The notes beneath the pieces were generated by a model that saw nothing but the letters and a program-made list of their open reading frames with translations, was not told where the DNA came from and searched no databases. This document shows, in pieces, positions 48,618 to 62,790 of a stretch of 64,000 bases of DNA. The position numbers and the translations under genes are program-made. This stretch comes from a phage. Numbering within the stretch: position 1 is the first letter of the stretch; each line of letters starts with the position of its first letter. Location: sequence record PZ229304.1, one strand, 5' to 3'.

Positions 48618-49290
48618 ATTTTTGAGCCTCCTCATAAGAGATAAAAGTTTTACCATTGCGAAGATCCTCCAGTGATTGTTTATATTGTTCCCAGTTTACA
48701 CCAATCCCCTGTTCTTTCTCTTCTTTTGACAGATTCGCAAAAGGTAAAGGATTGTCTCCAAACACATCGTCAGGATGGATAAACGCCATAATTCGAATAG
48801 GACATGGTACGCCTGGAATACCTCGGTTCAAACCTGCCAGCGGAACGCGCTGAATCCACTCTGCATCTTCATATCCATAACCGTGGGTGTATGAGCGGAA
48901 ATAGCCAGCTTTCTCAATAACTGCACGGGAATACATACCAAACTGGCACATCCCTAGTTCCCAAATAACCACTTCCCCTTCAATACCTTTTACTTTATCT
49001 TTAAAGTATTCAGGCATACCAAAGAAATCCCAACCATTTTCCTTCGCCTGTTTTACAAAATATGTTTCCCAACCTTGAACAACAGGATAACAATCATCAT
49101 CAAAAATAAACCAGTAATCATACCCTTCATCATAAAACTTTTTCATCAGTTCATTACGAGCATATGCAACACCTTTTCGTTCCCGATCATACTGTACAAC
49201 AAAAGTAGCATTAGGATCAGTCACAAGATAGTCTTTAAGAGGACGCTTACCTACAGTAATAACACCAACACCAATTTTTGTATTTTCCAA
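48604..49290 (-). CDS. putative glycosyltransferase (GT-A-like, DxD)
   Basis: 228 aa; WFIFDDDCYP acidic DxD-type motif; same operon as the GT-B pair. Confidence 0.35.
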   Translation of the reverse strand: MENTKIGVGVITVGKRPLKDYLVTDPNATFVVQYDRERKGVAYARNELMKKFYDEGYDYWFIFDDDCYPVVQGWETYFVKQAKENGWDFFGMPEYFKDKVKGIEGEVVIWELGMCQFGMYSRAVIEKAGYFRSYTHGYGYEDAEWIQRVPLAGLNRGIPGVPCPIRIMAFIHPDDVFGDNPLPFANLSKEEKEQGIGVNWEQYKQSLEDLRNGKTFISYEEAQKYGKS

Positions 49291-49299
49291 AATAACTCC

Positions 49300-49863
49300 T
49301 TAAATAATTTTATTCATGTCTTGACAATGTAAAAGGTGTGAAACAGCTTTTCTAGGATCATCGTTACCTAAACGGTAGGTGTGAAATAAATATAACCCAC
49401 GTAGTAAACCTAGCCTTTTATTGTTAGCGTGTAATGCTTTAGAGAAAATTATATCAAACTGTATTGATCTTTCCTCAAAAGGGATTTCATTCCACAGACT
49501 CTTACGAAAGAGAAGAAAGAATCCTGCTAAGATAGCATCTGTAGGTACTTCCTCTATTGAGTTTCCCCATTCTAGATGTGCTCTTTTTGCAATCTCAATG
49601 TGGTGTAATATATTTGGATCTTCACTTCTTTCATTATTAAATAATTGATATGTTGATCCCAATCTATTACAAGATGCACCAAGAACATCAAAATCAGGAT
49701 TTGAACGAACTATTGATTCCAGCCAAGCAGGTTGTTCTGGAAGAAGAAACATTGTATCAATGTCTCTTAGGCAAATCCAACTATCTTCTGGTAAGACACT
49801 TATTGTGTCATTGATACCTTTTCCAATATCTCCAGAAAGATAGGGAGTTATGTGAAATATCAT
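49300..49863 (-). CDS. hypothetical protein, possibly nucleotide-sugar transferase-like
   Basis: 187 aa; CLRDIDTMF DxD-like motif; first gene of the glycosyltransferase block. Confidence 0.25.
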   Translation of the reverse strand: MIFHITPYLSGDIGKGINDTISVLPEDSWICLRDIDTMFLLPEQPAWLESIVRSNPDFDVLGASCNRLGSTYQLFNNERSEDPNILHHIEIAKRAHLEWGNSIEEVPTDAILAGFFLLFRKSLWNEIPFEERSIQFDIIFSKALHANNKRLGLLRGLYLFHTYRLGNDDPRKAVSHLLHCQDMNKII

Positions 49864-50611: not shown

Positions 50612-51121
50612 TTAGCGATAGAATTGATGTTCTTTGTAGCGGTACACTAGAACCATATCTTTTTCCCAGTGTGCTCTTATTGTAGATTTTTTAAAGTATA
50701 ATGCTCCTTTTGTAATATCTAATGCAATTCGTAATTCTGGAAAATGCGTATCGAGATAAAGTAGACGTTCTGCTATAGCCTTAGCTTCCTTCCACTTATC
50801 ACGTTCCATAACGTTGAATGTCTTTGTGTAAGAGAATTGTCCTTTTTGAAACAAAACTTCTTTTATAGTATCAGGGAAATATGAATCTCTAGCCCTATTC
50901 AATACTACATTACCAACAGCAGACATACCGCGCTTTCCTTGATTACGACTTTCTGCATAGATTGCACAAGCTAATAGATTTTCTTTACTATCACGCTTTG
51001 TACACTTGTGAACTACTTTAGCAGTTTTTACGTTTGCAGCTTCGGCTTGCGCCACAACAGGTGTAAATGTAAAAGCAGTTAAGGATAGTAACGCAATTGC
51101 GACAAAGGTTTTTATTGACAA
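50612..51121 (-). CDS. secreted SleB-like cell-wall hydrolase (candidate endolysin)
   Basis: 169 aa; N-terminal signal peptide MSIKTFVAIALLSLTAFTFTPVVAQA; AIYAESRNQ...GMSAVGNVVLNRARD matches the SleB / Hydrolase_2 family. Confidence 0.5.
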   Translation of the reverse strand: MSIKTFVAIALLSLTAFTFTPVVAQAEAANVKTAKVVHKCTKRDSKENLLACAIYAESRNQGKRGMSAVGNVVLNRARDSYFPDTIKEVLFQKGQFSYTKTFNVMERDKWKEAKAIAERLLYLDTHFPELRIALDITKGALYFKKSTIRAHWEKDMVLVYRYKEHQFYR

Positions 51122-51843: not shown

Positions 51844-51859
51844 GCGCCCCGAAGGGCGC
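51844..51859 (-). terminator. hairpin downstream of TerD-like gene
   Basis: GCGCCC-CGAA-GGGCGC stem-loop with AT-rich flanks. Confidence 0.35.
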
Positions 51860-51880: not shown

Positions 51881-52477
51881 TTACTCGAACCAATCGTCGC
51901 CAGCGCCAAACGCTTTAACTACATCGTAAATGTCAAGCCCAGCTTTACCTACACCATATGCTTTCAGTTTCCATTCGCTATCTTCTCGCACCAGGGAGGC
52001 AACGTGGCAAATGGTGTTACCTGCAAGTTCTGGAGCCAAGAAGTCAAAGTCCAGCAGTTCAACATTACGTTCATCATCGAAGATTTTAAGGAAACCTTCG
52101 GTAGCGTGACCAAGGCGTTTCTTACCCGTTTCGTCATCAATAGTAATTACGAATGCAATTTCCTGTGCTTCAGCAGAGATATTATCCAGTGTAACATCAA
52201 TCTGCTCCATCTGTCCTACACCATCACGAACATCTTCACCTGCAAAAGTAGAACGTTCAGGATCAAATTTCTGCGCGTAGCACACCAGGTGACGAGGAGA
52301 CAACAGTTCCGGCAGACCAGATGCATTGTGTCGGCAAATCAGAGCACTAACATCCAGATCCAGTTTTTCGTTAGATTTCCAAGAGAATTCCAGACGAATG
52401 CGTTTCAGTGCTGGTGCGATCTTTTTCAGAGAAACTTTTTCGCTAGAACCTTTTTTCAGGGAAATTTTCTGAGTCAT
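51881..52477 (-). CDS. terD: TerD-family protein (tellurite-resistance / stress-response family)
   Basis: 198 aa; N-terminal MTQKISLKKGSSEKVSLKK is the typical TerD start; acidic Ca-binding-like segments (FAGEDVRDG, ITIDDETG). Confidence 0.6.
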   Translation of the reverse strand: MTQKISLKKGSSEKVSLKKIAPALKRIRLEFSWKSNEKLDLDVSALICRHNASGLPELLSPRHLVCYAQKFDPERSTFAGEDVRDGVGQMEQIDVTLDNISAEAQEIAFVITIDDETGKKRLGHATEGFLKIFDDERNVELLDFDFLAPELAGNTICHVASLVREDSEWKLKAYGVGKAGLDIYDVVKAFGAGDDWFE

Positions 52478-52549
52478 AATTTATTATCTCCTTTGTTGTT
52501 AATTTACGTTGTCTATTTTACTAATCTTTTCTACAAAGTCAAGCGTTTT

Positions 52550-53344
52550 TTACGCTTTTGCTCCGAATTTTTTAACCCACTCACCAAACTCTTCGGATAG
52601 CAGTTTATCGTAAAGTTCTTCGTCAGACAAGGACAAATCTGCAATACCGATAAAATCAACATTATCGTATTCTTTTGCCAAGTCTTTCAAGAATTTAAAG
52701 TTTGCATTACCTACACCAACCATAAACCAGTAAACAGGAGTGTTGCGGTGTTTGTTCAGCAAACTACGTACTGCTGAAGTATCCATGTTCTCCCCGTCAG
52801 TTTGGAAGAAAATCATTGCAGGAGTACGATCAACTTGTGCATCAGTATCTACAACCTGCTCTACAACAGTACGTGTTACTTCTACAAGTTCTTTTTTACC
52901 AGTTAGTTTAGCAAGGAAACCTTTAGCCGGAACTTCTTCATACTCAACGACTTCGCGTGTAATATTTTTCATAGGTACACTACCGAAGTATGTATCATAG
53001 ATCTCTTGCATTACTGGAGCATAGGCTGTACCACCGTTGATGCAAACATTAGACATGCAAGAGCCGACATAATCATCATACACATCAGCCGTTGCAGGAG
53101 GCAGTTCAAAAGAAGAACTATTGAAAGCCCACATGTCAATCTGTGCATTATCATCAAACTTCATACCAAACGGCAGCAGTTTACCTACAAAATCACTAAC
53201 AGTGCCATCACGATATAGCTCACACATACTACCCGAAATATCTAAGGCGCTACCGACACGAAGAACAACATCGTTAATCTTTTTCTTACGCAGAGATACA
53301 GTAAGAGTTTCTTGACGTTTTTTAAGACTGATTTTATTGGACAT
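52550..53344 (-). CDS. vWA-domain protein with TerD-like N-terminal tag (TerY-like)
   Basis: 264 aa; N-terminal SNKISLKK; MIDAS-like LDISGSM and downstream TDGEN motifs. Confidence 0.55.
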   Translation of the reverse strand: MSNKISLKKRQETLTVSLRKKKINDVVLRVGSALDISGSMCELYRDGTVSDFVGKLLPFGMKFDDNAQIDMWAFNSSSFELPPATADVYDDYVGSCMSNVCINGGTAYAPVMQEIYDTYFGSVPMKNITREVVEYEEVPAKGFLAKLTGKKELVEVTRTVVEQVVDTDAQVDRTPAMIFFQTDGENMDTSAVRSLLNKHRNTPVYWFMVGVGNANFKFLKDLAKEYDNVDFIGIADLSLSDEELYDKLLSEEFGEWVKKFGAKA

Positions 53345-53345
53345 A

Positions 53346-53615
53346 TTATTTCTCCTTTCTGACTATAATGTTAGTAACTTCTAAATCCACTTCTACCACT
53401 TCTGTATCATATAAAATACAGTTAAGTTGACCTCTTTGTGAACCGTTCAGACACATTGCTTGGTTTGTATTAACCTTAATAAACACTAAGTTTATGAACG
53501 TATCTAAACCAGAATCTTGATAGGCAACATAATATACGAATGTATCACCTGCGTCAAGTTCTCCAAAACATTTAGGTTCATCTGATTTGTCGTCTTTGAT
53601 GTTAAATTTAAGCAC
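53346..53615 (-). CDS. hypothetical protein within Ter-like module
   Basis: 89-aa ORF in operon context. Confidence 0.3.
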   Translation of the reverse strand: MLKFNIKDDKSDEPKCFGELDAGDTFVYYVAYQDSGLDTFINLVFIKVNTNQAMCLNGSQRGQLNCILYDTEVVEVDLEVTNIIVRKEK

Positions 53616-54171
53616 TGTCTTCTCCTTTACCTGCTCTCAAGCCTAAATAGAAAGCCTCTCTGGTGATCTTTTGCAACTCGTTTAAAGCGATAGTTACAAC
53701 TAAATCATCTTCAATTTCTAGCTTTGAGTCTTCTTCTGTCTCAATGCAAGTATTATGCACTTTGTGGTAAGGATTGTCAACACGTTTAAATTTATTATTT
53801 TCAGTGCTGAAGAAGCAATCTGGATCTTCTTCCCCATCACCCAAACCCTGGTTAGGATCTTCTTCAGATCTTTCTGTTGGGATCTCACCTGTAAAGTGCT
53901 CTTCTAATACCAGAGCAATCCCATCTCCAAGATCGGAAGAGAACATCAAATTACAAACTTCTTCCCAAGGCATAGACCACTTAAATCTTTTACGATTACC
54001 ATGTTTATCTTCTTCGTTAGAGAAAACACTACCATAGCTATCATAATTCCCATACATCTCTTCGACAACCTTACCACCTTTCAAAAGAAATAGGTAGCAA
54101 GGAGAGCCATCGAAAGAGGTAGAAAGAGCAGCATTACCAGACTCTTTGCACAAGAAACTAAAACACCCCAT
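53608..54171 (-). CDS. hypothetical protein within Ter-like module
   Basis: 187-aa acidic ORF. Confidence 0.3.
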   Translation of the reverse strand: MGCFSFLCKESGNAALSTSFDGSPCYLFLLKGGKVVEEMYGNYDSYGSVFSNEEDKHGNRKRFKWSMPWEEVCNLMFSSDLGDGIALVLEEHFTGEIPTERSEEDPNQGLGDGEEDPDCFFSTENNKFKRVDNPYHKVHNTCIETEEDSKLEIEDDLVVTIALNELQKITREAFYLGLRAGKGEDSA

Positions 54172-54371
54172 TATACACCAGCCTTAAGATCAATTAAAGC
54201 CAAAGTTGTTTCAGAGTGTGTTTGCTCGTCTACAGGTGCAGTCATATGATAATACAAAAAATCTTCGGCATCATACCAATCTGACTCTTGACCTTGTTTC
54301 CAACCATCAATGAAAGCATCTTCCATAATTGTTTGTAACTCTTCACGAGTTAAGTGAATATCTTTACTCAT
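54171..54371 (-). CDS. hypothetical small protein
   Basis: 66-aa ORF with stop/start overlap to neighbours. Confidence 0.3.
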   Translation of the reverse strand: MSKDIHLTREELQTIMEDAFIDGWKQGQESDWYDAEDFLYYHMTAPVDEQTHSETTLALIDLKAGV

Positions 54372-54604
54372 TACACATTCTCCTCTTTTACCAATTCCAT
54401 CGTTGAACTATCAAAACCATCTTTAGAAGAATAGGTATAGACAGAACGTAGTTCGCGCAGGACAGTGAATACATTAGGATCATCTAACCAAGCATCCTGG
54501 AGGAGAACATAACGATCTTCATTGTCGTACTGGACAGCAATCATAGAACCAGACAGTTTGTAAATTTTAATATTCATAATATATTTCTCCTTAAAGTAGA
54601 CCAC
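54371..54604 (-). CDS. hypothetical small protein
   Basis: 77-aa ORF with stop/start overlap to neighbours. Confidence 0.3.
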   Translation of the reverse strand: MVYFKEKYIMNIKIYKLSGSMIAVQYDNEDRYVLLQDAWLDDPNVFTVLRELRSVYTYSSKDGFDSSTMELVKEENV

Positions 54605-55694
54605 GTTTAACAGTTTGAATCATGCCATCTTCAAGAGATTGCACTTCTTGAATGTAATCAATACGAGCAGCACGGGCTTCAGTGTTGATTCGGTTAGTTT
54701 CTTCCAACATTTTAACTAAGTTTTCTTGATCACGACGTAATGTTTCAATATCCAACACTTGACGATTAGCAAGTTGTGTAGCTTCAATTTGGTTTTGTGC
54801 AGCAAGATCACTACCCATTGCAATAGCAGCATTAAATTCATTCAGTACATTGTTCTGTGTATCGGCTGCTTTCTTCTGGCGTAGACTTTCAATATACATA
54901 GAAAAGTTTGCAGAGTAAGCAGGAATAACATTATTCACAATATTACGGGCTGATCGCATCAAACTTGCAGATACTTTCTGCATACTTTGTACACGTGGCC
55001 CCATCTGAACACACAGTAAGCGTAGGGCTTTCAGGTCTGCAATACGAATTTCAAGCAGATCCATAGTATCACGAGTACGTTGACGCTCTTCTACCTCATT
55101 TTCAGGCAGTGTATTAAGGCGAACTTCTTCTTTTTCATAAGTAGCTGTTAGAAGCTCTATATCTCTGTTTAAGCTAAGAGCATATTTGGCAATAGCCTCT
55201 TCTAAACGTTGCAGATATCGTAAAGAATCTTCTTCTTTTTTCAAGTCTGTTTGGAGTGTCTTTACCAAACCTTCAATACGATTATTGATGGTGTCAAATT
55301 CTCCAAACAAATCTTCTTTCATACCTAATACTTTCTTAACTAACTTACCTAAACCTTTAGATTGTTTAATAGAATTAGGATCAAGTTGCTTTGCTTGCTT
55401 AATAAGTGCAGTTAAACGTTCACTCATTTCATCTCCCTGAGATGAACGCTGGTGTTTAAGCACTTCAGCATTAAGGTTACGAAGAGTAAGTCCTGCATCA
55501 GCACCAACCTGTTCAATCTCTTCACGAGACATTGGAGGCAGCATTTGTACAGGTCGTGCAACAGCAGGGGCATATACAGGACTTGCATCCATAGCAGTTG
55601 GAGCAAACAAAGACTTACTTTTTTCTGTTGTTGCCGTGAATACACTCATTTCAGACGGTTTGCTTTTTACGGCACTGATAAAAGGACTGGACAT
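54591..55694 (-). CDS. TelA-like (toxic anion resistance / KlaA-like) protein, putative
   Basis: 367 aa, predominantly helical coiled coil; size and operon context with TerD/TerC; no discrete motif verified. Confidence 0.4.
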   Translation of the reverse strand: MSSPFISAVKSKPSEMSVFTATTEKSKSLFAPTAMDASPVYAPAVARPVQMLPPMSREEIEQVGADAGLTLRNLNAEVLKHQRSSQGDEMSERLTALIKQAKQLDPNSIKQSKGLGKLVKKVLGMKEDLFGEFDTINNRIEGLVKTLQTDLKKEEDSLRYLQRLEEAIAKYALSLNRDIELLTATYEKEEVRLNTLPENEVEERQRTRDTMDLLEIRIADLKALRLLCVQMGPRVQSMQKVSASLMRSARNIVNNVIPAYSANFSMYIESLRQKKAADTQNNVLNEFNAAIAMGSDLAAQNQIEATQLANRQVLDIETLRRDQENLVKMLEETNRINTEARAARIDYIQEVQSLEDGMIQTVKRGLL

Positions 55695-55762
55695 TCAATT
55701 TCCTCCATATTCTTTAGTAGATGGTGATACCTCTGTACCACCATCATAACACAAATTAAGTA

Positions 55763-56614
55763 TTAAACAAACATATCTAAATAATTTGTAGTAATAAACG
55801 CCCCATCTGCTTCCAGATTAACATAACCAGTAGCATTAGTGGTTAAGAAATCCAGATCGAAGGACTCTTTAACACCCCGTACCTCAACACGAGAGATATC
55901 GAATACAGGTAGTGTAACAGCCTCTTCGTGCAATACCGTACCTTTGTAGGTTGCCTTAATGATAAACTTGATATTACCCGTTCCAGCATCATACAAAACA
56001 CTTTCAAACCCTTTGAGAGTATATTTATCACCAGAAGTGAAGTGCAAAGTTGCTTTGTTTACAGTACGTTTTTTACGAGGAGTTCCTTTCACACGTTTAT
56101 GATCACTACGTTTTTTGTATTTAGGAATGAATACAAACGATACACTCTCAAGAAAGGTATCAACATCAAGGATTTTAATATCCTCTGTTGCAGCAAATTT
56201 TGAAGTCGTTGCATCAAAATGCTTTTCCCTGCGATCATACATAAAGATATCAAACCGATCTTCTAAATCAAACAAATTATGTATTTTAATTTCAGAATGC
56301 TTGCGCATTGCAGCAACCTTGAACTCTTCAAAACGTGGGTGTTCTACAAGTTCTTCAAGTTTTACACCAAAGACAGTATATTGCTTCGGAGTTTTTTCTG
56401 GTGTTGGCATTACAGAAGCATAATCCCCGATTGCGCTCTTAAAGCAAAATTGTTCTTGACCTGTATTTTTACCAACGAATTTACAGTATTCGTCATCGTG
56501 CATACTTTCCTGGGTAGTACCAACAAACTCAAAACCATCTTTATTCTTCTCAAGAATTTCTTGATTAAAGATCCAACCTTCCAGGCGATACACTTTACCA
56601 ACTTCTAGTTTCAT
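55763..56614 (-). CDS. hypothetical protein within Ter-like module
   Basis: 283-aa ORF. Confidence 0.3.
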   Translation of the reverse strand: MKLEVGKVYRLEGWIFNQEILEKNKDGFEFVGTTQESMHDDEYCKFVGKNTGQEQFCFKSAIGDYASVMPTPEKTPKQYTVFGVKLEELVEHPRFEEFKVAAMRKHSEIKIHNLFDLEDRFDIFMYDRREKHFDATTSKFAATEDIKILDVDTFLESVSFVFIPKYKKRSDHKRVKGTPRKKRTVNKATLHFTSGDKYTLKGFESVLYDAGTGNIKFIIKATYKGTVLHEEAVTLPVFDISRVEVRGVKESFDLDFLTTNATGYVNLEADGAFITTNYLDMFV

Positions 56615-56649
56615 CTGTTTCTCCTTCTTATTTAATCTGTATTAAATTA

Positions 56650-57255
56650 TTAACGACGACGTGAGCTACTAAAACTACGTTTCGACGAAGAATAACTTTT
56701 CGAAGACTTACTATAAGAGCTAATAGGACTTGAGTAAGACTTACGAGCAGAGTAATCACTATTCACTTTTGTTGTTGATGGGCGTGAATACGTTTGTACA
56801 CTTTGCTGCTTAATTGTGTTTTGTTTAGTTGTTGTATATGTATTCCCTTGTTTATCATAAAAACTATGCTTTTGTGTTGTATATGCTTTACTATTAGTTG
56901 CAGGAGCAGCATTGTTATTAATAATGGTTGTATTGCTACCACCATCTCTATAACCACCACCGCCACTATTACCACTCAACATATGACCAAGAAGCATACC
57001 TGTAGCAAAGTCACCTACACCAGAAGAACCACTGCCGCCTCCTTGAACAACAACTGTTGAAGGTTGTGCAGGTGCTGCTTGAACAACTTGAGGTGCAGGT
57101 TGATTTACATATTGTTCATCTACCATCTGATTTGGTGTTTGTTGGTAACGTTGATTTTGTACATTTTCAGAATCATCACAACCTACCAGCAATGCACTAC
57201 CTAAAACAACTGCAACAATAAAAGATTTAATGTTTTTCATTTGTAACCCTCTCAT
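56650..57255 (-). CDS. lipoprotein with glycine-zipper region
   Basis: Likely start at the MKNIKSF Met; lipobox LLVGC; Gly-rich GGGSGSSGVGDFATGMLLGHMLSGNSGGGG; Ser/Asn/Gln-rich C-terminus. Confidence 0.5.
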   Translation of the reverse strand: MRGLQMKNIKSFIVAVVLGSALLVGCDDSENVQNQRYQQTPNQMVDEQYVNQPAPQVVQAAPAQPSTVVVQGGGSGSSGVGDFATGMLLGHMLSGNSGGGGYRDGGSNTTIINNNAAPATNSKAYTTQKHSFYDKQGNTYTTTKQNTIKQQSVQTYSRPSTTKVNSDYSARKSYSSPISSYSKSSKSYSSSKRSFSSSRRR

Positions 57256-57433
57256 TTAAAGTCTCAACACAATTTTTAAAATCCCTAGAGAAACAATACA
57301 TCTGCTCTCCGTTCCTGTTGATAGTAATTGTATGGTTATCAATATATGTTGTCAAGATAAAAATTAAACAAAACAACCCTAAAGCAAAACAAATATTTTC
57401 AAACAGAATCCAAAGAACACGTAAAACCACCAT
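57227..57433 (-). CDS. small membrane protein (hypothetical)
   Basis: 68 aa with one strongly hydrophobic helix. Confidence 0.3.
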   Translation of the reverse strand: MVVLRVLWILFENICFALGLFCLIFILTTYIDNHTITINRNGEQMYCFSRDFKNCVETLNERVTNEKH

Positions 57434-57448
57434 CAGATCACCTCAATA

Positions 57449-57466
57449 AAGCCCCCGAAGGGGCTT
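57449..57466 (-). terminator. terminator hairpin downstream of TerC-like gene
   Basis: AAGCCCC-CGAA-GGGGCTT; plus-strand A-run gives a U-tract for the minus transcript. Confidence 0.5.
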
Positions 57467-57472
57467 AATGAA

Positions 57473-58450
57473 TTAAGCAACAGCCTGGTCTTCTTTTTCA
57501 GGGAAGATTAAACTTGCAAGAACACCCAGCCCAAGAGTACCTAACACAATATACATACTGATCGTCGGGTCAATGTGTGCTGGCAGGAAACTCATTTTTG
57601 CGTGCAGAGTTTCTGCAAACGGATGATACATCAGTTTTACACCCACAAATACCAGGACTACGATAACTGCTTTCTCCAGATGAACCAAATATTTCAGTGC
57701 AACACTAAGAACAAAGAACAGAGCACGTAAACCTAAGATTGCACAGAGCATCGAAGAGAACACCAGCAGAGGTTCTTGTGTCACTGCAATTACTGCTGGA
57801 ACAGAGTCTACTGCAAAGATTACGTCAACCATTTCCATTACAAACACACAAACCAGAGCCGGAGTTGCTACACGAACACCATTTTTGATTGTGAAGAACT
57901 TCTCACCATCCATCTGATCAGATACAGGGAACAGCTTACGAACAATGCGAGTAGCCCAGTGTTTAGAGTAATCAACTTCTGCATCATTATCTCCAGCGAA
58001 TACCATTTTAGCCGCACAGAAAAGGATGACAGCACCGAAGAAGATATTAACATACCAGCCCAAACTCAACAAGTAAGTACCTACTGCTACAAACACACCT
58101 CGGAAGACAATCGCACCTGCAATACCCCAAAGTAGAATCTTGTGTTGCAAGTGTGTGCTTTTAATACCAAAACTTGCGAATACTGCCACAAATACTACTA
58201 AGTTATCTACAGAAAGAGATTTCTCCAACACATACCCACTCAAAAACAAGCTCGCAAAATCAGCACCGTGTTGGAAGTATACAAAACCATAGTAGGCTAA
58301 TGATACCCCAATCCAGAAAATTGACCAACCAATTGCAGATTTAAATGAAATTTCTTTGTTTTCTCTGTGTCCAAAGAAATCAATACAAATCGACAACACT
58401 AAAATACCCACTAAAACAACCACATCAATAATTGGGAAACCCAGTTGCAT
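57473..58450 (-). CDS. terC: TerC-family integral membrane protein
   Basis: 325 aa, multi-pass hydrophobic; duplicated signature SLSVDNLVVFVAVF and FAVDSVPAVIAV typical of TerC. Confidence 0.75.
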   Translation of the reverse strand: MQLGFPIIDVVVLVGILVLSICIDFFGHRENKEISFKSAIGWSIFWIGVSLAYYGFVYFQHGADFASLFLSGYVLEKSLSVDNLVVFVAVFASFGIKSTHLQHKILLWGIAGAIVFRGVFVAVGTYLLSLGWYVNIFFGAVILFCAAKMVFAGDNDAEVDYSKHWATRIVRKLFPVSDQMDGEKFFTIKNGVRVATPALVCVFVMEMVDVIFAVDSVPAVIAVTQEPLLVFSSMLCAILGLRALFFVLSVALKYLVHLEKAVIVVLVFVGVKLMYHPFAETLHAKMSFLPAHIDPTISMYIVLGTLGLGVLASLIFPEKEDQAVA

Positions 58451-58527
58451 TCTTTCCTCCTCTTTAATGCGGAGGACAATCCTCCGCTCTATGTCTTATA
58501 CTATAAACTGTTTTTAAAGAAAGTCAA

Positions 58528-58776
58528 CTAGTTCAGTTCTGTAATTTTAAGTTTATCTTCTTTGTTAATGATAGGGAAAGCTACAGCATCACCTACATCA
58601 TCAATAAAGCAAATAGCAAGACCACCTTCCACTTTGCTAACCTGACCGTTAAAGGCATGATACGGGGCAGGAACTTCATCCCCATCTTCAATGAGAATAG
58701 CCTCGTAAACCTTGCCGATAGTACAATCACGGGTGTTTATAAATTTTTCAAGCACTTCAACATTTACTTTACGCAT
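58528..58776 (-). CDS. hypothetical protein
   Basis: 82-aa ORF. Confidence 0.3.
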   Translation of the reverse strand: MRKVNVEVLEKFINTRDCTIGKVYEAILIEDGDEVPAPYHAFNGQVSKVEGGLAICFIDDVGDAVAFPIINKEDKLKITELN

Positions 58777-58790
58777 ATAAAGATCCTCTC

Positions 58791-58997
58791 TTATTTGTTA
58801 GATTGAAAGATACCACGAAGTACCGCAAGAATGAACGTCACACAGACTACACTCCAAAACGTTACAGGAACATGATGCCAGTCTAAGCCGATAATGTCAA
58901 TCATATAGTTGTATGCTAAAAGCAGTAACCAACTAGGGATTAACACAATCAAGAACACAACAATAAAACAACCTAATACTGCTAAAACACCTGCCAT
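58791..58997 (-). CDS. small membrane protein (hypothetical)
   Basis: 68 aa, two hydrophobic helices. Confidence 0.3.
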   Translation of the reverse strand: MAGVLAVLGCFIVVFLIVLIPSWLLLLAYNYMIDIIGLDWHHVPVTFWSVVCVTFILAVLRGIFQSNK

Positions 58998-59006
58998 ACT
59001 TTCTCC

Positions 59007-59722
59007 TTATTTCAGTTTGTAAACAATTACATTTAAACCTTTGTTCACTAGAGTTTCTTCGATCATAAGTTTTACAATATTCCAAGAACCTCCAGCCAAA
59101 CCACAACCAAGCATTGGTAAACCTACAATTTTACCGCCTGAAGATACAACATCGTCTCCCATACTATCTAACGCATTGTAGATAGCTTCATAATCCAGGT
59201 CACGCTTACCTTCCTCACGACGACTATAACCATATTGTCCATATAAATTATAAATTGTCAAATTGTTTTCTGTATACTTAGTAAACGTACCTAATTTTTT
59301 ATAATCACCACGTTTAGTGGCACAATCTGCTTTAAACGCACCAGGCCACTTGCTTTTAATTTTTGGTGCAATACCACTACCCATAGTGCAAAAACAGTTA
59401 CAGCAGTGTGCTATAGCGTCTATATCGCCTCTCTCGGCTGCTGCTAAAAGATCACCGTATACCTCAATGATACCTGCTGGATAACTTGTTACAATTTCAT
59501 CTTCCCAATACATTTTCTCTACACCACCGATCAGTGCAAAGTTTTGTGTAATGCGATCATCAATATAGTTAAGACCTGAAACATACACAGCATATTCATC
59601 CTGTGCTGTAATGCCTTGTACACGAATTCTTAAGACACCATCTTTATCTGTTGCTACGCGCCCAAAATCTTTTTCTGTAATATTGGTGATAGGATCTCCG
59701 AAAGTCATTACTTTATTAGACA
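59007..59722 (-). CDS. macro-domain-like protein (ADP-ribose binding / processing), putative
   Basis: Probable start is the MSNKVMTF Met. DAIAHCCNCFCTMGSGIAPKI and IVGLPMLGCGLAGGSW resemble the two Gly-rich macro-domain motifs. Confidence 0.4.
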
Positions 59723-60573
59723 TAATAATCCCCTTTAACATTAGATTTGTTGATAATGTTGCTTTCAAAAAATTGACGCAGGAAATCAAAGTTCTCTTTG
59801 TATTTTTCAATATTATTGTAACCTTCTGCAAGGCAACCAAAGAACAGTTGTTCTACATAATACAAAGGAAGTTGTGAAAGTGCAATTTTAAAATCAACTT
59901 CGCTTTGACTCATTAGATACTTAATAGGACGAACCAAACATTTAGCATCAGTTTCTTGCTTAATCATTTTAATAAAAGCTGCCAGGTTATTGATATAGTT
60001 GAAGTTAAGTGCAGCTTCGGTGTTGGCTTCTGTACCTTCATACTTTGCAAAGTACAGGAAAAACGTATCGTTTTCAACACCTTCTTTGTCTAAAATTTCA
60101 ATAAGTTTTTCTTCGTGTGTTCCTGTAATATTAACATCATCAATGAAAATCAGAGTTTTATTACCCCAGAAATCACGATTGATAGAGAAAGTGTCACCAT
60201 CGATCAAAGCCTTACGATCTTCTTTGCTAAGAAATCCATAATCATTGATATAACTCACTTTACGATGAACGATATCCCACTCCACTGCTTTACCTCCTTT
60301 GATAGAGATTAGGTAGTTGAGGTGATCTACAAAATGCTCAGATAACACTGTAGCTGCATTTTTCACATAATTATATGGAGATGGAATAACAACAAAACTT
60401 TCATTTACTAGTCGTTCTTCATATTTAGAAAAGAAACTTTCAGCCAGAATGCGTCCCATTCTTTTTGCTGCCTGGTTACTGCCAAACTTTAGTTTGGAAT
60501 AATCTGCAATGTTAAATTTTGCTTCCTTCAGGTTAGTAAAAGTATTAGCAAAATGTTGAATTTGATTACGCAT
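59716..60573 (-). CDS. phosphoribosyltransferase (type I PRTase fold)
   Basis: 285 aa; LIFIDDVNITGTH matches the PRPP-binding motif (hydrophobic-DD-x-x-TG-x-T). Confidence 0.55.
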   Translation of the reverse strand: MRNQIQHFANTFTNLKEAKFNIADYSKLKFGSNQAAKRMGRILAESFFSKYEERLVNESFVVIPSPYNYVKNAATVLSEHFVDHLNYLISIKGGKAVEWDIVHRKVSYINDYGFLSKEDRKALIDGDTFSINRDFWGNKTLIFIDDVNITGTHEEKLIEILDKEGVENDTFFLYFAKYEGTEANTEAALNFNYINNLAAFIKMIKQETDAKCLVRPIKYLMSQSEVDFKIALSQLPLYYVEQLFFGCLAEGYNNIEKYKENFDFLRQFFESNIINKSNVKGDYYV

Positions 60574-61222
60574 TAATAAGTTCCTCTTTTTTAAGTTTAG
60601 CCAACAAGTCTTCTGGATTAATAATATGACAGAACTTCATCCCTATGTCAACAGCTTTTCCATCATAAATCAAACTATCTCCAACGTGTAAAATCTCCTC
60701 TGGTGCGAGATCAAACGTTACCATTTCATCAAAAGAGAGTTTAAAAAACCTAGGATCTGGTTTACACAAGCAAAACTCGTCAGAAAAATGCATAAAGTCG
60801 AATGGTAATTTTGTTAAACCAGAATATACAGCTAAGAAACTACCTGGTACAAAATTAGTATTACTCTTAATACTCAAAGAGTAGGTTGAACTTAGCTCTT
60901 CCAACTTCTTGCAAAGTTCAGGATTCAATGTTGGAGGATGTTTTATAAACATTGCTAAACAGTCTCTTTTTAACCCATCCACTTTATCAAGATCAATATT
61001 CAAATGAGTAGAAAGTGTTTCCCAAGCATTCCTAGACGTTCCACAAATTCCTTTTTCTGCTTTTAAATCCAGGAGAGTTTTTACCTCTTTATATACGGTA
61101 GCTGCTTCTGCTTCAGAACAAGAGGCATACTCGGCAATAACCTTGTTGCGTTCTTCTGCATACAAAGGATTAGCAGTAATAAGAGTATTCCATACATCAA
61201 AAGAAATATGCTTAACAGTCAT
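60566..61222 (-). CDS. HAD-superfamily hydrolase (phosphatase-like)
   Basis: Motif I-like ISFDVWNTLI near N-terminus and motif IV-like VGDSLIYD; likely start at the MTVKHISF Met with GGAGG RBS. Confidence 0.5.
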   Translation of the reverse strand: MTVKHISFDVWNTLITANPLYAEERNKVIAEYASCSEAEAATVYKEVKTLLDLKAEKGICGTSRNAWETLSTHLNIDLDKVDGLKRDCLAMFIKHPPTLNPELCKKLEELSSTYSLSIKSNTNFVPGSFLAVYSGLTKLPFDFMHFSDEFCLCKPDPRFFKLSFDEMVTFDLAPEEILHVGDSLIYDGKAVDIGMKFCHIINPEDLLAKLKKEELINA

Positions 61223-61391
61223 TTTTAATCCTCCGTCCAAAAGAATATCATCTGCTTAATTTTATTGATCTCTTGATGTAGTAACTTTCCAGCATGTGAT
61301 TGATCTTTAATATTGACAGCAAGAATTTCAAGCTCCGTTAGTTTTTCCTGGATAGCTTTATATTCATCATCTGTAAGCATTTTCTTCCCCT

Positions 61392-61595
61392 TTAGAATGG
61401 TAATCTTTGTATGTCACTTATACCCACACCAAGAAGTCTAGCAATATCCTTATCTAAAAGCAACTCTTTTTGTTCTAAAATGTTAATCAGATCTCCTAAT
61501 ACTTCTTTAATATCACGATCATTTTTAGCAACGTGACCACCTGCGGTATCAACTTTATCTTTAAAAACAAAATAATGATCCATAATACCCTCCAT
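61392..61595 (-). CDS. hypothetical small protein
   Basis: 67-aa ORF. Confidence 0.3.
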   Translation of the reverse strand: MEGIMDHYFVFKDKVDTAGGHVAKNDRDIKEVLGDLINILEQKELLLDKDIARLLGVGISDIQRLPF

Positions 61596-61603
61596 ATAAA
61601 TAA

Positions 61604-61622
61604 AGGAGGCTTTCGCCTCCTT
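61604..61622. terminator. bidirectional hairpin terminator
   Basis: AAGGAGGC-TTTC-GCCTCCTT flanked by an A-run and a T-run. Confidence 0.5.
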
Positions 61623-61629
61623 TTATCAC

Positions 61630-62790
61630 TTAGTAAGAACGACCACCAAACACATACTCTGTGTAGTTTTTACGTTCTTTGTTTTTAATAACAACTTCAA
61701 TGTTGTTGCCTTTATCATCGGTGAACACAAAGTGATAACCGTCACCACCCATTGTACGGATGTGTTTTTCATCATACGTCAGCAAGATACGGTCTACACC
61801 CCAGTAGTAGTCACCTTCTTCGTCTTTATCTTCTACGGTAACTACTCCTTCCATTTCAGGAAGATGCTCTTCTCCTGACTTATGATCTACAGCTACAACA
61901 TAACGATTACCGCTAAACAAACCTTGTGCTGTCATACCGTCAATATCTGTATCTGACGAAACATCTCCTGTACGATCTACACCGTTAACTTTCAGAAGTT
62001 TAACTTCTTTTGCAGCATAGCGGTGTTCAGTGATACTGATACCCATTAATGCAAGTGCATCAGAGAATTTGTCATTAGGGTAACGGTTAAGTTCTTCTAC
62101 TAAGGACTGAACAATATCAAAGTTCAAATCCACGGAAAGATTATAAAGCGTTTCAAAATCTGGTAAAAAGGCTTTGTTCTCCAGATTTTTAGCCAGATAG
62201 TCATCCATAGTAGCTTTAGGTAGTTTCTTATAGCTAAAGCTGTAGAAAATACGGCTAGGACGATTACGCAAAAATTCTGATACATAACCATCATTTTTAG
62301 TCAATACAAACAGCTTGTCGTAGCCACCTACACCATCCAGCAGGGTAAGCAAACCATCTTGTGCATCTTTTTCAGCATACAGTTTATCAAATTCATCGAT
62401 CATAATCATCACAGGCTGTGTGATTTTAGACATAAAATTGATAAAGCCTTCACCATTAAAAGCACTACCGATAGAAATAGTAGGAATACCCATTTCACGA
62501 AGAGCAGAAGACAGCATTTTAGCTTGCAAAGTTTTACCGCTACCTTTCGTACCCTCAAGGAGAACGCCTGTGTTTTTACCTTTGCGGCTAAGGAACGTCT
62601 TGATAATACGTTCTGATTTATCATCAGTATCACCGTATGTTACTGAAGGGACTTCCATATCGTTTTTAGGATACAGGAAGAACTCGCCACTTTGAGTAAC
62701 ACCTACACCAAAAGTTCCTGCTGGAATTTCTTCAATATCTGTACCAGATTTCTGACGCAGGAAGATTTGATTGCCGAATACTGTAAACAT
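61630..62790 (-). CDS. P-loop ATPase (AAA-like) of unknown role
   Basis: 386 aa; Walker A GTKGSGKT; Walker B MIMIDEFDKL. Confidence 0.5.
   Translation of the reverse strand: MFTVFGNQIFLRQKSGTDIEEIPAGTFGVGVTQSGEFFLYPKNDMEVPSVTYGDTDDKSERIIKTFLSRKGKNTGVLLEGTKGSGKTLQAKMLSSALREMGIPTISIGSAFNGEGFINFMSKITQPVMIMIDEFDKLYAEKDAQDGLLTLLDGVGGYDKLFVLTKNDGYVSEFLRNRPSRIFYSFSYKKLPKATMDDYLAKNLENKAFLPDFETLYNLSVDLNFDIVQSLVEELNRYPNDKFSDALALMGISITEHRYAAKEVKLLKVNGVDRTGDVSSDTDIDGMTAQGLFSGNRYVVAVDHKSGEEHLPEMEGVVTVEDKDEEGDYYWGVDRILLTYDEKHIRTMGGDGYHFVFTDDKGNNIEVVIKNKERKNYTEYVFGGRSY

What the first reader, a model, noticed from the sequence alone, without database searches (positions are those of the whole stretch)
51881..61222. 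Phage-borne tellurite-resistance-like (Ter) stress module: TerD, vWA/TerY-like, TelA-like and TerC with linked macro/PRTase/HAD genes
A contiguous minus-strand block in an otherwise lytic-looking genome encodes TerD (51881-52477), a vWA protein with a TerD-like N-terminal tag (52550-53344), a TelA-like coiled-coil protein (54591-55694), TerC (57473-58450) and a phosphoribosyltransferase plus HAD phosphatase (59716-61222). These families co-occur in bacterial Ter-dependent stress/defence operons that have been proposed to make a nucleoside-like metabolite. Carried by a phage, the block could act as a membrane-stress or anti-defence system, or in superinfection exclusion. This is the strongest candidate for a poorly described system in the window.
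Basis: partly seen in the sequence, partly recalled or inferred. Interest (0 to 1): 0.8.

Follow-up and report, generated by a model that had tools for sequence, protein, structure and literature searches.

The report
Phage-borne Ter membrane-stress gene module
A virulent phi92-like E. coli phage carries a well-conserved set of 'tellurite-resistance' (Ter) membrane-stress genes plus a two-enzyme nucleotide-making cassette, but the same block is already annotated in over a hundred related phages and discussed in the literature, and its role in infection is still untested.

Summary
On the minus strand, 51881-61222 encodes TerD, a vWA-TerF-like protein, TelA, a TerC/Alx membrane protein, a macro-domain protein, a PRTase_3 (ComF-like) phosphoribosyltransferase and a HAD hydrolase. 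All pass the Pfam cut-offs. All are under strong purifying selection (dN/dS about 0.05).

The window is a Justusliebigvirus (phi92-like myophage). The block is 98-99% identical in at least 55 phage records, and its genes occur in about 132 Stephanstirmvirinae genomes. Phage Ter modules of this composition were described by Iyer et al. 2021 and noted for phi92, phiPsa374 and phiKp34, with the same superinfection-exclusion idea. This is therefore a known kind of system whose function has not been tested.

What I add:
- HAD and PRTase_3 form an adjacent pair in all 20 lineages examined, and 15 of the 20 also carry Ter genes.
- This HAD family has an invariant Trp where phosphatases carry the Asp+2 general acid.
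- The macro domain is TARG1/DarG-like, occurs in 2935 phage records, and is probably not part of the system.
- The 'TerD-like tag' on vWA is a family feature that bacterial TerF also has.
- TerB is absent, and the TerD calcium loop is degenerate.

The most likely role is an inner-membrane conditioning or exclusion complex. This is inferred, not shown.

The parts
51881..52477 (-). TerD-domain protein (198 aa); its calcium-binding loop is degenerate
   Evidence: Pfam TerD, E 5e-28. PDB 2KXT and 3IBZ match at E 1e-14 and 3e-13. The loop reads GEDVRDGVGQMEQ, where other phage and bacterial TerDs have GDNxTGxGxGDDE. dN/dS 0-0.05.
52515..52542 (-). sigma70-like promoter match (TTGACT-16-TAAAAT) in the vWA-TerD intergenic gap
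   Evidence: Consensus scan only. Conservation was not tested.
52550..53344 (-). vWA-TerF-like protein (264 aa) with an intact MIDAS DxSxS motif and an N-terminal ISLKK..VSLRK hairpin motif
   Evidence: Pfam PF10138, E 1e-38. The motif DISGS and the conserved N-terminal segment appear in all phage homologues aligned. The protein aligns to TerF residues 184-400 of a bacterial plasmid.
53346..54577 (-). Four small or medium ORFs of unknown function (89, 187, 66 and 68 aa) lying between vWA and TelA
   Evidence: Only PHROGs of unknown function match. No Pfam match. The 187-aa ORF is deleted in phage PD06, so it is dispensable.
54591..55694 (-). TelA-like protein (367 aa); all-helical and soluble
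   Evidence: Pfam TelA, E 5e-34. No transmembrane segment predicted. The AF2 model is all-alpha with long helices but has low confidence. dN/dS 0.01-0.04.
55763..56614 (-). 283-aa protein of unknown function, restricted to Stephanstirmvirinae
   Evidence: phrog_27504 only. No Pfam or NCBIfam match. Homologues occur only in close relatives.
56650..57240 (-). Predicted inner-membrane lipoprotein (lipobox LVGC followed by Asp-Asp) with a G/S/Q/T-rich low-complexity body
   Evidence: Sequence and hydropathy analysis. PHROG of unknown function.
57227..57433 (-). 68-aa protein with a single transmembrane segment
   Evidence: Hydropathy analysis. PHROG of unknown function.
57473..58450 (-). TerC/Alx-family polytopic inner-membrane protein (325 aa)
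   Evidence: Pfam TerC, E 1e-38. NCBIfam TIGR03718, 323 bits against a cut-off of 246. About 8-9 hydrophobic segments. 48% identical to plasmid TerC proteins.
58469..58527 (-). sigma70-like promoter (TTGACT-16-TATAGT, 58527-58500), then a GC stem-loop (58487-58469) directly before the terC ribosome-binding site
   Evidence: The -35 element is invariant, and the stem is kept by compensatory changes in phAPEC8 and in a third lineage. phAPEC8 annotates a host-dependent promoter at the same place.
58528..58997 (-). Two small ORFs: an 82-aa soluble protein and a 68-aa protein with two transmembrane segments (labelled 'holin' in phage BME3)
59007..59723 (-). Macro-domain protein (238 aa): an 84-aa N-terminal extension followed by a TARG1/DarG-class macro domain. 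Probably not part of the Ter system
   Evidence: Pfam Macro, E 3e-7. DarG models match at E 2e-13 and 7e-13, far below their cut-offs. PDB 5E3B, 2FG1 and OARD1 match at 1e-15 to 1e-10. Homologues occur in 2935 phage records.
59716..60573 (-). PRTase_3 (ComF-like) phosphoribosyltransferase (285 aa) with an intact PRPP loop (FIDDVNITGTHE)
   Evidence: Pfam PF15610, E 1e-41. D145, D146, T150, G151 and H153 are invariant across 44 homologues. No PDB relative by sequence.
60566..61222 (-). HAD-superfamily hydrolase (218 aa) whose reading frame overlaps the PRTase gene by 8 nt. The nucleophile Asp is present, but Asp+2 is replaced by an invariant Trp
   Evidence: Pfam PF00702, E 4e-6. The motif reads D-[VFLI]-W-x-T in 26 of 26 distinct homologues, and motifs II-IV are intact. 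The nearest PDB entry is 2OM6, which has the same FDVWNTL motif.
61225..61595 (-). Two small ORFs (51 and 67 aa) between the upstream terminator and the HAD gene
   Evidence: No informative family match for the 67-aa ORF; the 51-aa ORF was not scanned against any family library.
61602..61623 (-). Intrinsic terminator (AAAGGAGGC-GAAA-GCCTCCTTT followed by a T-rich tail) after the AAA ATPase gene. It marks the upstream boundary of the block
51844..51859 (-). GC hairpin (GCGCCC-TTCG-GGGCGC) 21 nt after the TerD stop codon. It marks the downstream boundary of the block

Best explanation
The block is a virus-encoded version of the bacterial Ter 'functional hub'.

Proposed components:
- TerC/Alx is a polytopic inner-membrane ion or metal transporter.
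- Three soluble partners sit at the cytoplasmic face of the membrane. TerD is a beta-sandwich ligand or Ca2+ binder. The vWA-TerF-like protein is a MIDAS metal-dependent adaptor. TelA is a long helical protein.
- HAD-PRTase_3 is a dedicated two-enzyme cassette. The PRTase would join an unknown base to PRPP, and the HAD enzyme would process the product into a nucleoside-like small molecule that the complex uses or senses.

Proposed role: at least part of the block appears to be transcribed from host-type promoters. In the infected cell it conditions the inner membrane so that it stays intact and closed. This would exclude DNA entry by superinfecting phages and resist pore-forming colicins and other membrane insults until the phage's own lysis. 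Those are the phage-inhibition and colicin-resistance phenotypes already known for bacterial ter operons.

What is shown: gene identities, intact catalytic and binding motifs, purifying selection, and the genomic linkage of HAD-PRTase_3 with Ter genes.

What is inferred: that a complex forms, what the metabolite is, when the genes are expressed, and the exclusion or protection phenotype.

The macro protein is most likely a separate, generic phage ADP-ribose hydrolase.
For: Family assignments.

Purifying selection: dN/dS 0-0.18 for the seven assigned family genes and 0.054-0.075 pooled over the block.

The core set recurs in unrelated phage lineages.
- TelA-vWA-TerC/DUF475-TerD is found in CcrColossus, RHph_TM61 and XaC1.
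- It is also found in IMG/VR and metagenome contigs.

HAD-PRTase_3 is linked to Ter genes.
- HAD lies immediately upstream of PRTase_3 in all 20 non-redundant lineages examined.
- Ter genes lie within 10 kb in 12 of the 20, and elsewhere in the same genome in 3 more.
- A bacterial Hymenobacter plasmid places the pair next to a TerD/vWA/kinase/phosphatase/DUF475 cluster.

Motifs are intact: the PRPP loop, the MIDAS motif, and the HAD nucleophile with motifs II-IV.

The neighbourhood is rich in envelope proteins: TerC, two small transmembrane proteins and an inner-membrane lipoprotein.

A conserved sigma70-like promoter precedes terC, and phAPEC8 annotates one at the same place.

Bacterial ter operons give the proposed phenotypes.
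- They confer phage inhibition and colicin resistance, and both phenotypes need terC, terD and terZ (Whelan 1995, as quoted).
- A K. pneumoniae terC deletion gives larger plaques (PMC12054061).

The same hypothesis was published for phage Ter systems (PMC7824862).
Against: - No experiment on any phage Ter gene was found.
- PADLOC has no model that matches the Ter proteins.
- TerB is a membrane-associated component of the classical ter operon, and no ORF of the block scanned against Pfam matches it; only the 51-aa ORF at 61225-61380 was not scanned.
- The TerD calcium loop is degenerate in this lineage.
- The HAD enzyme lacks the Asp+2 general acid expected of a nucleotide phosphatase, so the proposed chemistry may be wrong.
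- The TelA fold could not be modelled with confidence. Mean pLDDT was 57.7 and there were no significant structural matches.
- The promoter scan is not enriched over shuffled sequence (49 sites against 42.9 +/- 5.8).
- The reported bacterial anti-phage effect of terC is mild.
Confidence: 0.4

Rival explanations
1. The block is a metal-homeostasis auxiliary function. TerC/Alx would export or deliver Mn2+, Zn2+ or Ca2+ across the inner membrane of the infected cell. TerD, vWA and TelA would act as metal-sensing regulators. The purpose would be to keep cytosolic metal levels right for phage enzymes such as the adjacent NrdD/NrdG, or to metalate periplasmic proteins.
For: - TerC passes the curated TerC/Alx 'metal homeostasis membrane protein' model.
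- K. pneumoniae terC contributes to Zn(II) and Mn(II) resistance, and Zn induces the operon.
- TerD domains bind Ca2+ (PDB 2KXT family), and the vWA protein has a metal-dependent MIDAS site.
- The block lies next to the anaerobic ribonucleotide reductase genes.
- From my own knowledge, E. coli Alx and B. subtilis MeeF/MeeY act in Mn export and in metalation of secreted proteins.
Against: - No yybP-ykoY or other riboswitch lies upstream of terC, unlike bacterial alx.
- The TerD acidic Ca2+ loop is degenerate here.
- This view does not explain the obligatory HAD-PRTase_3 partner or TelA.
- No metal-dependent secreted phage enzyme is evident nearby. The neighbouring SleB-like hydrolase is not known to need a metal.
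Confidence: 0.2
2. The block is a counter-defence. The Ter complex would stabilise or reseal the inner membrane against host abortive-infection effectors that kill by membrane depolarisation or pore formation. This would let the phage finish its cycle on hosts armed with such systems.
For: - It rests on the same membrane-directed gene set and the same colicin-resistance phenotype of bacterial ter operons.
- The block lies in an early or middle-looking region rich in accessory genes.
- phi92-like phages have broad host ranges (PMC11984140 abstract).
Against: - There is no direct evidence.
- None of the proteins matches a known anti-defence family.
- The module is a conserved core of the whole subfamily and is not variable, which is unlike most anti-defence genes.
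Confidence: 0.15
3. The block is not one system. Only TerC, TerD, vWA and TelA would form a unit. HAD-PRTase_3 and macro would be ordinary nucleotide-salvage or ADP-ribose housekeeping genes that happen to lie beside NrdDG.
For: - In RHph_TM61, XaC1 and the L009 group, the HAD-PRTase_3 pair sits among nucleotide-metabolism genes such as DHFR, NMN adenylyltransferase/NUDIX, PurA-like, thymidine kinase and NT5C.
- It is 28-165 kb from the Ter genes in three complete genomes.
- It stands alone on Rhizobium plasmid pRL10.
- Macro homologues occur in 2935 phage records, most of them without Ter genes.
Against: - For HAD-PRTase_3, 15 of 20 lineages carry Ter genes in the same locus or genome, although Ter genes are rare among phages (about 150-250 of 50,697 records).
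- A bacterial Ter locus carries the same pair.
- For the macro gene, this rival view is probably correct.
Confidence: 0.15
4. The block gives literal tellurite (toxic anion) resistance to the infected host.
For: Only the family names and database annotations support this.
Against: - The classical determinant needs TerB plus several TerD paralogues (terZABCDE), and these are absent here.
- A virulent phage kills its host within one cycle.
- Authors of related phage papers also doubt this role.
Confidence: 0.03

Closest known systems
Phage-encoded Ter systems described by Iyer, Anantharaman, Krishnan, Burroughs & Aravind 2021 (jumbo phages: Acinetobacter phage ME3; Caulobacter CcrColossus group)
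   Same: Same components: TerD, TerC, TerF-type vWA and TelA, with or without PRTase plus HAD. Same proposed role, competition with superinfecting phages. CcrColossus carries TelA-vWA-DUF475-TerD and the HAD-PRTase_3 pair.
   Different: This genome is about 146 kb, not a jumbo phage. All parts sit in one 9.7-kb block. TerC is of the TerC/Alx type, not DUF475. The TerD calcium loop is degenerate. That paper's text does mention 'certain other related smaller tailed phages'.
phi92 / phAPEC8 (Stephanstirmvirinae) orthologous block
   Same: Essentially the same block. It is 98-99% identical in Justusliebigvirus, and protein identities in Phapecoctavirus are 50-81% with the same gene set. phi92 gp172, gp173 and gp178 were flagged as Ter proteins in 2015.
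   Different: Phapecoctavirus has a shorter macro protein (157 aa), lacks the AAA ATPase upstream, and carries extra small ORFs.
Bacterial terZABCDEF locus with its divergent biosynthetic module (IncHI2 R478, E. coli O157, Klebsiella and Pantoea plasmids)
   Same: TerC is 48% identical. The TerD domain, the TerF-type vWA with the same pre-vWA hairpin motif, and an associated PRTase-containing biosynthetic module are all shared.
   Different: There is no TerB and only one TerD paralogue, against TerZ, A, D, E and F. TelA is present here, whereas none is annotated in the Pantoea ter locus examined. The PRTase is PRTase_3, a family not detected on enterobacterial plasmids, and no ATP-grasp enzyme is present.
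Bacillus subtilis yceCDEFGH operon (three TerD genes, TerC/MeeF, YceG, TelA/YceH)
   Same: It combines TerD, TerC and TelA without TerB. It is an envelope-stress regulon, and its TerC acts in Mn export and metalation (from my own knowledge).
   Different: It has no vWA protein and no HAD-PRTase cassette. It is a host regulon and not a viral one. It was not examined with tools here.
DarG antitoxin and TARG1/OARD1 macrodomains
   Same: The macro domain matches DarG models (E 2e-13 and 7e-13) and OARD1, SCO6735 and BT1257 structures.
   Different: The score of 48.6 bits is far below the 250-bit DarG cut-off. Only the macro half of the model (positions 4-147 of 338) is matched. There is no DarT neighbour. 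The protein belongs to a macro family present in 2935 phage records.

Membership tests
Ter-dependent stress-response system (Anantharaman, Iyer & Aravind 2012; phage version in Iyer et al. 2021) | TerD-domain protein | tested here: met
   Pfam TerD, E 5e-28. PDB TerD structures match at E 1e-14.
Ter-dependent stress-response system (Anantharaman, Iyer & Aravind 2012; phage version in Iyer et al. 2021) | TerC-family integral membrane protein | tested here: met
   Pfam TerC, E 1e-38. TIGR03718 scores 323 bits against a cut-off of 246. Multiple transmembrane segments.
Ter-dependent stress-response system (Anantharaman, Iyer & Aravind 2012; phage version in Iyer et al. 2021) | Sub-membrane components TelA and TerF-type vWA | tested here: met
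   TelA, E 5e-34, and vWA-TerF-like, E 1e-38. MIDAS motif intact.
Ter-dependent stress-response system (Anantharaman, Iyer & Aravind 2012; phage version in Iyer et al. 2021) | Linked nucleoside/nucleotide biosynthesis enzymes (PRTase plus HAD) | tested here: met
   PRTase_3, E 1e-41, and HAD, E 4e-6, with overlapping genes. The pair is linked to Ter genes in 15 of 20 lineages.
Ter-dependent stress-response system (Anantharaman, Iyer & Aravind 2012; phage version in Iyer et al. 2021) | TerB ligand-binding protein | tested here: not met
   No ORF of the block scanned against Pfam matches TerB; the 51-aa ORF at 61225-61380 was not scanned. Iyer et al. list TerB as one optional sensor among several, so its absence does not exclude membership.
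Ter-dependent stress-response system (Anantharaman, Iyer & Aravind 2012; phage version in Iyer et al. 2021) | Phenotype: resistance to phage, colicin or xenobiotics | not testable with these tools
   Needs deletion mutants and infection assays.
Classical terZABCDEF tellurite-resistance operon | Several TerD paralogues (TerZ, A, D, E) plus TerB and TerC in one operon | tested here: not met
   There is a single TerD, no TerB, and no Ter paralogue elsewhere in the window. Compare the Pantoea plasmid locus.
HAD-superfamily phosphatase | Motif I nucleophile Asp; motifs II (S/T), III (K) and IV (acidic pair) | tested here: met
   D9, T13, S120, K154, D182 and D187 are invariant in the 10-sequence alignment. 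Across 26 distinct sequences only the motif II Ser varies, to Cys in two.
HAD-superfamily phosphatase | Asp at nucleophile+2 acting as general acid/base (DxD) | tested here: not met
   The position is Trp in 26 of 26 distinct homologues (D-[VFLI]-W-x-T). The same motif occurs in PDB 2OM6, whose function is unknown. The role of Asp+2 is established knowledge of the superfamily (from my own knowledge).
Type I phosphoribosyltransferase (PRTase_3 / ComF-like) | PRPP-binding loop: a hydrophobic run, then DD, then xxTGxT | tested here: met
   The loop reads LIFIDDVNITGTHE. D145, D146, T150 and G151 are invariant in 44 sequences. Pfam scores 143 bits against a cut-off of 28.7. Enzyme activity and base specificity cannot be tested here.
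DarG (DarTG antitoxin) | Full-length DarG (macro domain plus C-terminal DarT-binding domain) with an adjacent DarT | tested here: not met
   The score is 48.6 bits against a 250-bit cut-off. Only model positions 4-147 of 338 are matched. No DarT-like neighbour is present.
TerC/Alx riboswitch-controlled transporters | yybP-ykoY Mn2+ riboswitch in the 5' leader | tested here: not met
   No Rfam family reaches its gathering score anywhere in the window. The leader is about 45 nt with a simple hairpin.

The most novel reading that the evidence does not exclude
The phage module is a self-contained viral small-molecule circuit. The HAD(Trp)-PRTase_3 pair would make a non-canonical nucleotide-like compound. 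It would not be a simple nucleoside, because the HAD enzyme lacks the phosphatase general acid. TerD or vWA would sense this compound at TerC and switch inner-membrane permeability. The result would be a virus-made 'membrane lock' that blocks genome entry by rival phages and blunts pore-forming abortive-infection effectors. If so, the compact phage version would be the first tractable system in which to identify the long-postulated Ter metabolite.
Probability: 0.15. Interest if true: 0.65.

Novelty: already known. Interest (0 to 1): 0.3.

Why it matters
The biochemical function of Ter systems has been unresolved for about 30 years, although they are present on thousands of enterobacterial plasmids (2662 PLSDB records carry a TerC homologue). 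A lytic phage that keeps a minimal and strongly conserved version is a convenient genetic handle on that question. This version has one TerD, one vWA, TelA, TerC and a two-gene metabolite cassette.

The observation itself is not new. Its value lies in the testable details added here:
- HAD and PRTase_3 form an obligate pair.
- The HAD active site is atypical.
- The macro gene can be separated from the system.

For phage-therapy genomics, these 'tellurite resistance' annotations in phi92-like therapeutic phages should not be read as transferable resistance genes.

Tried and rejected
1. TelA fold. An AF2 model built from a 22-sequence alignment had mean pLDDT 57.7. A Foldseek search of the PDB gave no match at E <= 0.001, only generic long-helix bundles such as AhlC, ClyA and BAR domains at TM 0.2-0.35. 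No structural inference was drawn.

2. Riboswitch or other RNA upstream of terC. No Rfam family matched anywhere in the window.

3. Known defence-system membership. PADLOC has no match for TerD, vWA, TelA, TerC, PRTase or HAD. The Cas12g and mad8 hits at E about 1e-3 were dismissed as noise.

4. A fifth conserved Ter-linked protein. ORFs of about 310-335 aa flank TerD in at least four other phage lineages. Profile-profile comparison shows no homology among them or with the window's 283-aa ORF, apart from one marginal pair at 62% probability. None has a Pfam match.

5. PRTase_3 on IncHI2-type ter plasmids. It was not found. Only Rhizobium, Sinorhizobium and Hymenobacter plasmids carry it, so a recent capture from the host's ter island is rejected. 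TerD shows only distant similarity to K. pneumoniae TerD (E 1e-14).

6. The PRTase has no solved relative by sequence.

7. Small ORFs of the block have no informative Pfam or PHROG assignment.

8. Anantharaman et al. 2012 could not be read because it is not held in the library. Its content is cited only through papers that quote it.

Full report
**What the window is.** Megablast of 51881-61222 against GenBank phages finds 122 records. In 55 of them the whole 9.3-kb block is covered, and 57 records match at 95-99% identity. They include phi92, BME3, muut, alia and JohannJBalmer. The best-annotated hit is classified as Stephanstirmvirinae; Justusliebigvirus. The window is therefore a virulent, phi92-like E. 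coli myophage of about 146 kb.

**Checking the observation.**
  - TerD, E 5e-28.
  - vWA-TerF-like, E 1e-38.
  - TelA, E 5e-34.
  - TerC, E 1e-38.
  - Macro, E 3e-7.
  - PRTase_3, E 1e-41.
  - HAD, E 4e-6.
- TerC also passes NCBI's curated TerC/Alx model, at 323 bits against a cut-off of 246.
- Corrected start codons, taken from the annotation of relatives, give macro 59007-59723 and HAD 60566-61222. HAD overlaps PRTase by 8 nt, and PRTase overlaps macro by 8 nt.
- The genes are functional. Against three relatives, pooled dN/dS is 0.054-0.075, and the seven assigned family genes range from 0 to 0.18.
- The remaining ORFs of the block match only PHROGs of unknown function. These are ORFs of 89, 187, 66, 68, 283, 68 and 82 aa, a 68-aa membrane protein, and a 196-aa lipoprotein. 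Several are membrane proteins.
- An intrinsic terminator at 61623-61602 and a GC hairpin at 51859-51844 bracket the block.
- A sigma70-like promoter followed by a stem-loop lies directly upstream of terC. Its -35 element is invariant, and its stem is kept by compensatory changes in two other lineages. phAPEC8 annotates a host-dependent promoter at the same place.

**Anatomy in more detail.**
- TerD. It aligns over its full length to the solved TerD structures. The acidic loop is GDNxTGxGxGDDE in K. pneumoniae TerD and in other phage TerDs. In Stephanstirmvirinae it is shortened to GEDVRDGVGQMEQ. At least one calcium site is therefore probably lost; this is an inference.
- vWA.
  - It keeps the MIDAS DxSxS motif.
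  - This segment is conserved in every phage vWA-TerF-like protein aligned.
  - It aligns to residues 184-204 of a bacterial TerF, between its TerD domain and its vWA domain.
  - It is therefore a family feature and not a peculiarity of this phage.
- PRTase_3. It has an intact PRPP loop and many invariant residues across 44 homologues. No solved relative exists by sequence.
- HAD. It keeps the nucleophile Asp and motifs II-IV. The residue two positions after the nucleophile is Trp in 26 of 26 distinct homologues. In HAD phosphatases this position is the Asp general acid/base (established knowledge). The nearest structure, 2OM6, has the same FDVWNTL motif and no known function. Calling this enzyme a 'phosphatase' is therefore an assumption.
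- Macro. It belongs to the TARG1/OARD1/SCO6735/DarG class. In Justusliebigvirus alone it carries an 84-aa N-terminal extension.

**What belongs together.**
- I collected loci encoding PRTase_3 relatives from several sources:
  - GenBank phages.
  - The protein collection.
  - Plasmids.
  - IMG/VR.
- I then searched these loci with the window's proteins.
- In all 20 non-redundant lineages, a HAD of this Trp type lies immediately upstream of PRTase_3, usually overlapping it.
- In 12 of the 20, Ter genes (TerD, TerC/DUF475, vWA, TelA) lie within 10 kb. One of these is a bacterial Hymenobacter plasmid, where the pair faces three TerD genes, two vWA genes, a kinase, a PP2C phosphatase and DUF475.
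- In three complete phage genomes the pair lies far from any Ter gene. A contiguous Ter cluster is still present in each:
  - RHph_TM61, 87 kb away.
  - CcrColossus, 28 kb away.
  - XaC1, 165 kb away.
- Ter genes are rare in phages. TerD was found in 148, TelA in 246 and PRTase_3 in 157 of 50,697 records. The association is therefore far beyond chance.
- Macro homologues occur in 2935 phage records of many families. They abut PRTase_3 only in Stephanstirmvirinae. Macro is best treated as an unrelated neighbour.
- The AAA ATPase at 61630-62790 lies upstream of the terminator and is absent from Phapecoctavirus. It is not part of the block.

**Comparison with the known.**
- The literature already covers this.
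  - Iyer et al. 2021 describe phage Ter systems made of PRTase and HAD (signal synthesis), TerD/TerB (sensors), TerC (membrane) and TelA/TerF-vWA (sub-membrane). [quoted passage not shown] They propose a role in competition with superinfecting phages.
  - The same four-gene subset is noted in phiKp34, in phiPsa374 and in P. syringae phages. All of these papers state that the function is unknown.
  - phi92 gp172, gp173 and gp178 were flagged as Ter proteins in a 2015 cocktail metagenome.
  - No functional test of a phage Ter gene was found.
- Relative to the classical enterobacterial terZABCDEF locus, the phage version differs as follows:
  - It has a TerC that is 48% identical.
  - It has one TerD where the bacterial locus has five TerD-domain proteins.
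  - It has no TerB.
  - It has TelA, which is not annotated in that locus.
  - It has PRTase_3, where the bacterial locus has a different PRTase with ATP-grasp partners.
- PRTase_3 was not found on enterobacterial plasmids. The module is therefore an old phage lineage of the Ter hub and not a recent capture from the host.

**Mechanism.**
- The best-supported reading (confidence about 0.4) is the one already in the literature, sharpened here.
  - TerC, TerD, vWA and TelA would form a complex at the inner membrane.
  - The product of the HAD-PRTase_3 cassette would serve this complex.
  - The complex would keep the infected cell's membrane closed to rival phages, pore-forming colicins and similar insults.
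- The support is indirect.
  - Bacterial ter operons confer phage inhibition and colicin resistance, and both phenotypes require terC, terD and terZ (Whelan 1995, quoted).
  - A K. pneumoniae terC deletion enlarges plaques and sensitises cells to Zn and Mn.
- Three rivals remain:
  - A metal-homeostasis role, about 0.2.
  - A counter-defence role against membrane-targeting abortive infection, about 0.15.
  - A non-unitary reading in which HAD-PRTase_3 is plain nucleotide metabolism, about 0.15. The co-occurrence data argue against this one.
- Literal tellurite resistance is very unlikely.

**Dead ends.** The TelA model had low confidence, and fold search gave nothing significant. No riboswitch was found. 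PADLOC gave no match for the Ter proteins. No fifth conserved protein family was found next to TerD.

**Verdict.** The block is a common, already described feature of phi92-like phages and belongs to a known kind of system. Its function in phages is an open but not new question. The modest additions here are the obligate HAD-PRTase_3 pair with an atypical HAD active site, the separation of macro from the system, the origin of the vWA 'tag', the degenerate TerD loop and the conserved terC promoter-hairpin.

Noticed in passing
GenBank MG065639, MG065689, MG065645, MG065650 (hits H32, H91, H133, H115): Records labelled 'Campylobacter phage' (A150, A110a, A145, B15 and others) encode TerD, TelA and PRTase proteins identical or near-identical (99.7-100%) to those of this window or of other E. 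coli Justusliebig- and Phapecoctaviruses. The host label looks wrong, or the lysates were contaminated.
   Followed up: no
window 58469-58527 (-): A sigma70-like promoter is followed, inside the short terC leader, by a GC stem-loop. The stem is kept by compensatory substitutions in phAPEC8 and in a third lineage. It may be a 5' stabiliser or an attenuator.
   Followed up: partly
window 56650-57240 (-): A predicted lipoprotein has the lipobox LVGC followed by Asp-Asp, the classical inner-membrane retention signal. Its body is long, glycine/serine/glutamine-rich and low in complexity. A weak homologue lies about 4 kb from the Ter genes in another phage contig (L020).
   Followed up: partly
window 50612-51121 (-): A SleB/Hydrolase_2-type cell-wall hydrolase with an N-terminal signal peptide lies just downstream of the block and is annotated as an endolysin in phAPEC8. 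A homologue also lies near the Ter genes in contig L020.
   Followed up: no
window 53608-54171 (-); L013: The 187-aa ORF inside the block is highly conserved between the two genera (E 5e-94). It is cleanly deleted in phage vB_vPM_PD06.
   Followed up: partly
window 59472-59723 (-): The macro protein has an 84-aa N-terminal extension with no detectable family. The extension is absent from the 157-aa Phapecoctavirus orthologue.
   Followed up: no
window 61630-62790 (-): A 386-aa AAA+ ATPase lies between nrdG and the block. It has weak STAND/AAA matches. It is present in Justusliebigvirus and in one related contig but not in Phapecoctavirus, which has a 201-aa 'hydrolase' at that position.
   Followed up: no
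L004 10176-11426; L009 16-612; L010 423-1640: Adenylosuccinate-synthetase (PurA/PurZ-like) genes lie within about 5-8 kb of the HAD-PRTase_3 pair in Rhizobium phage RHph_TM61 and in an unrelated metagenomic phage. This could indicate 2-aminoadenine genomes.
   Followed up: no
L037 8730-9740; L036 9321-10325; L006 7094-8029; L007 1574-2557; L022 11515-12465: An unannotated ORF of about 310-335 aa sits next to TerD in at least four other phage lineages. They have no Pfam match and no demonstrable homology to one another, except one marginal pair.
   Followed up: yes
window 47643-49863 (-): Three consecutive glycosyltransferase-like genes lie downstream of the block, as annotated in BME3 and phAPEC8.
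   Followed up: no
window about 38000: GC skew switches sign near 38 kb, which coincides with the change from plus-strand to minus-strand genes.
   Followed up: no
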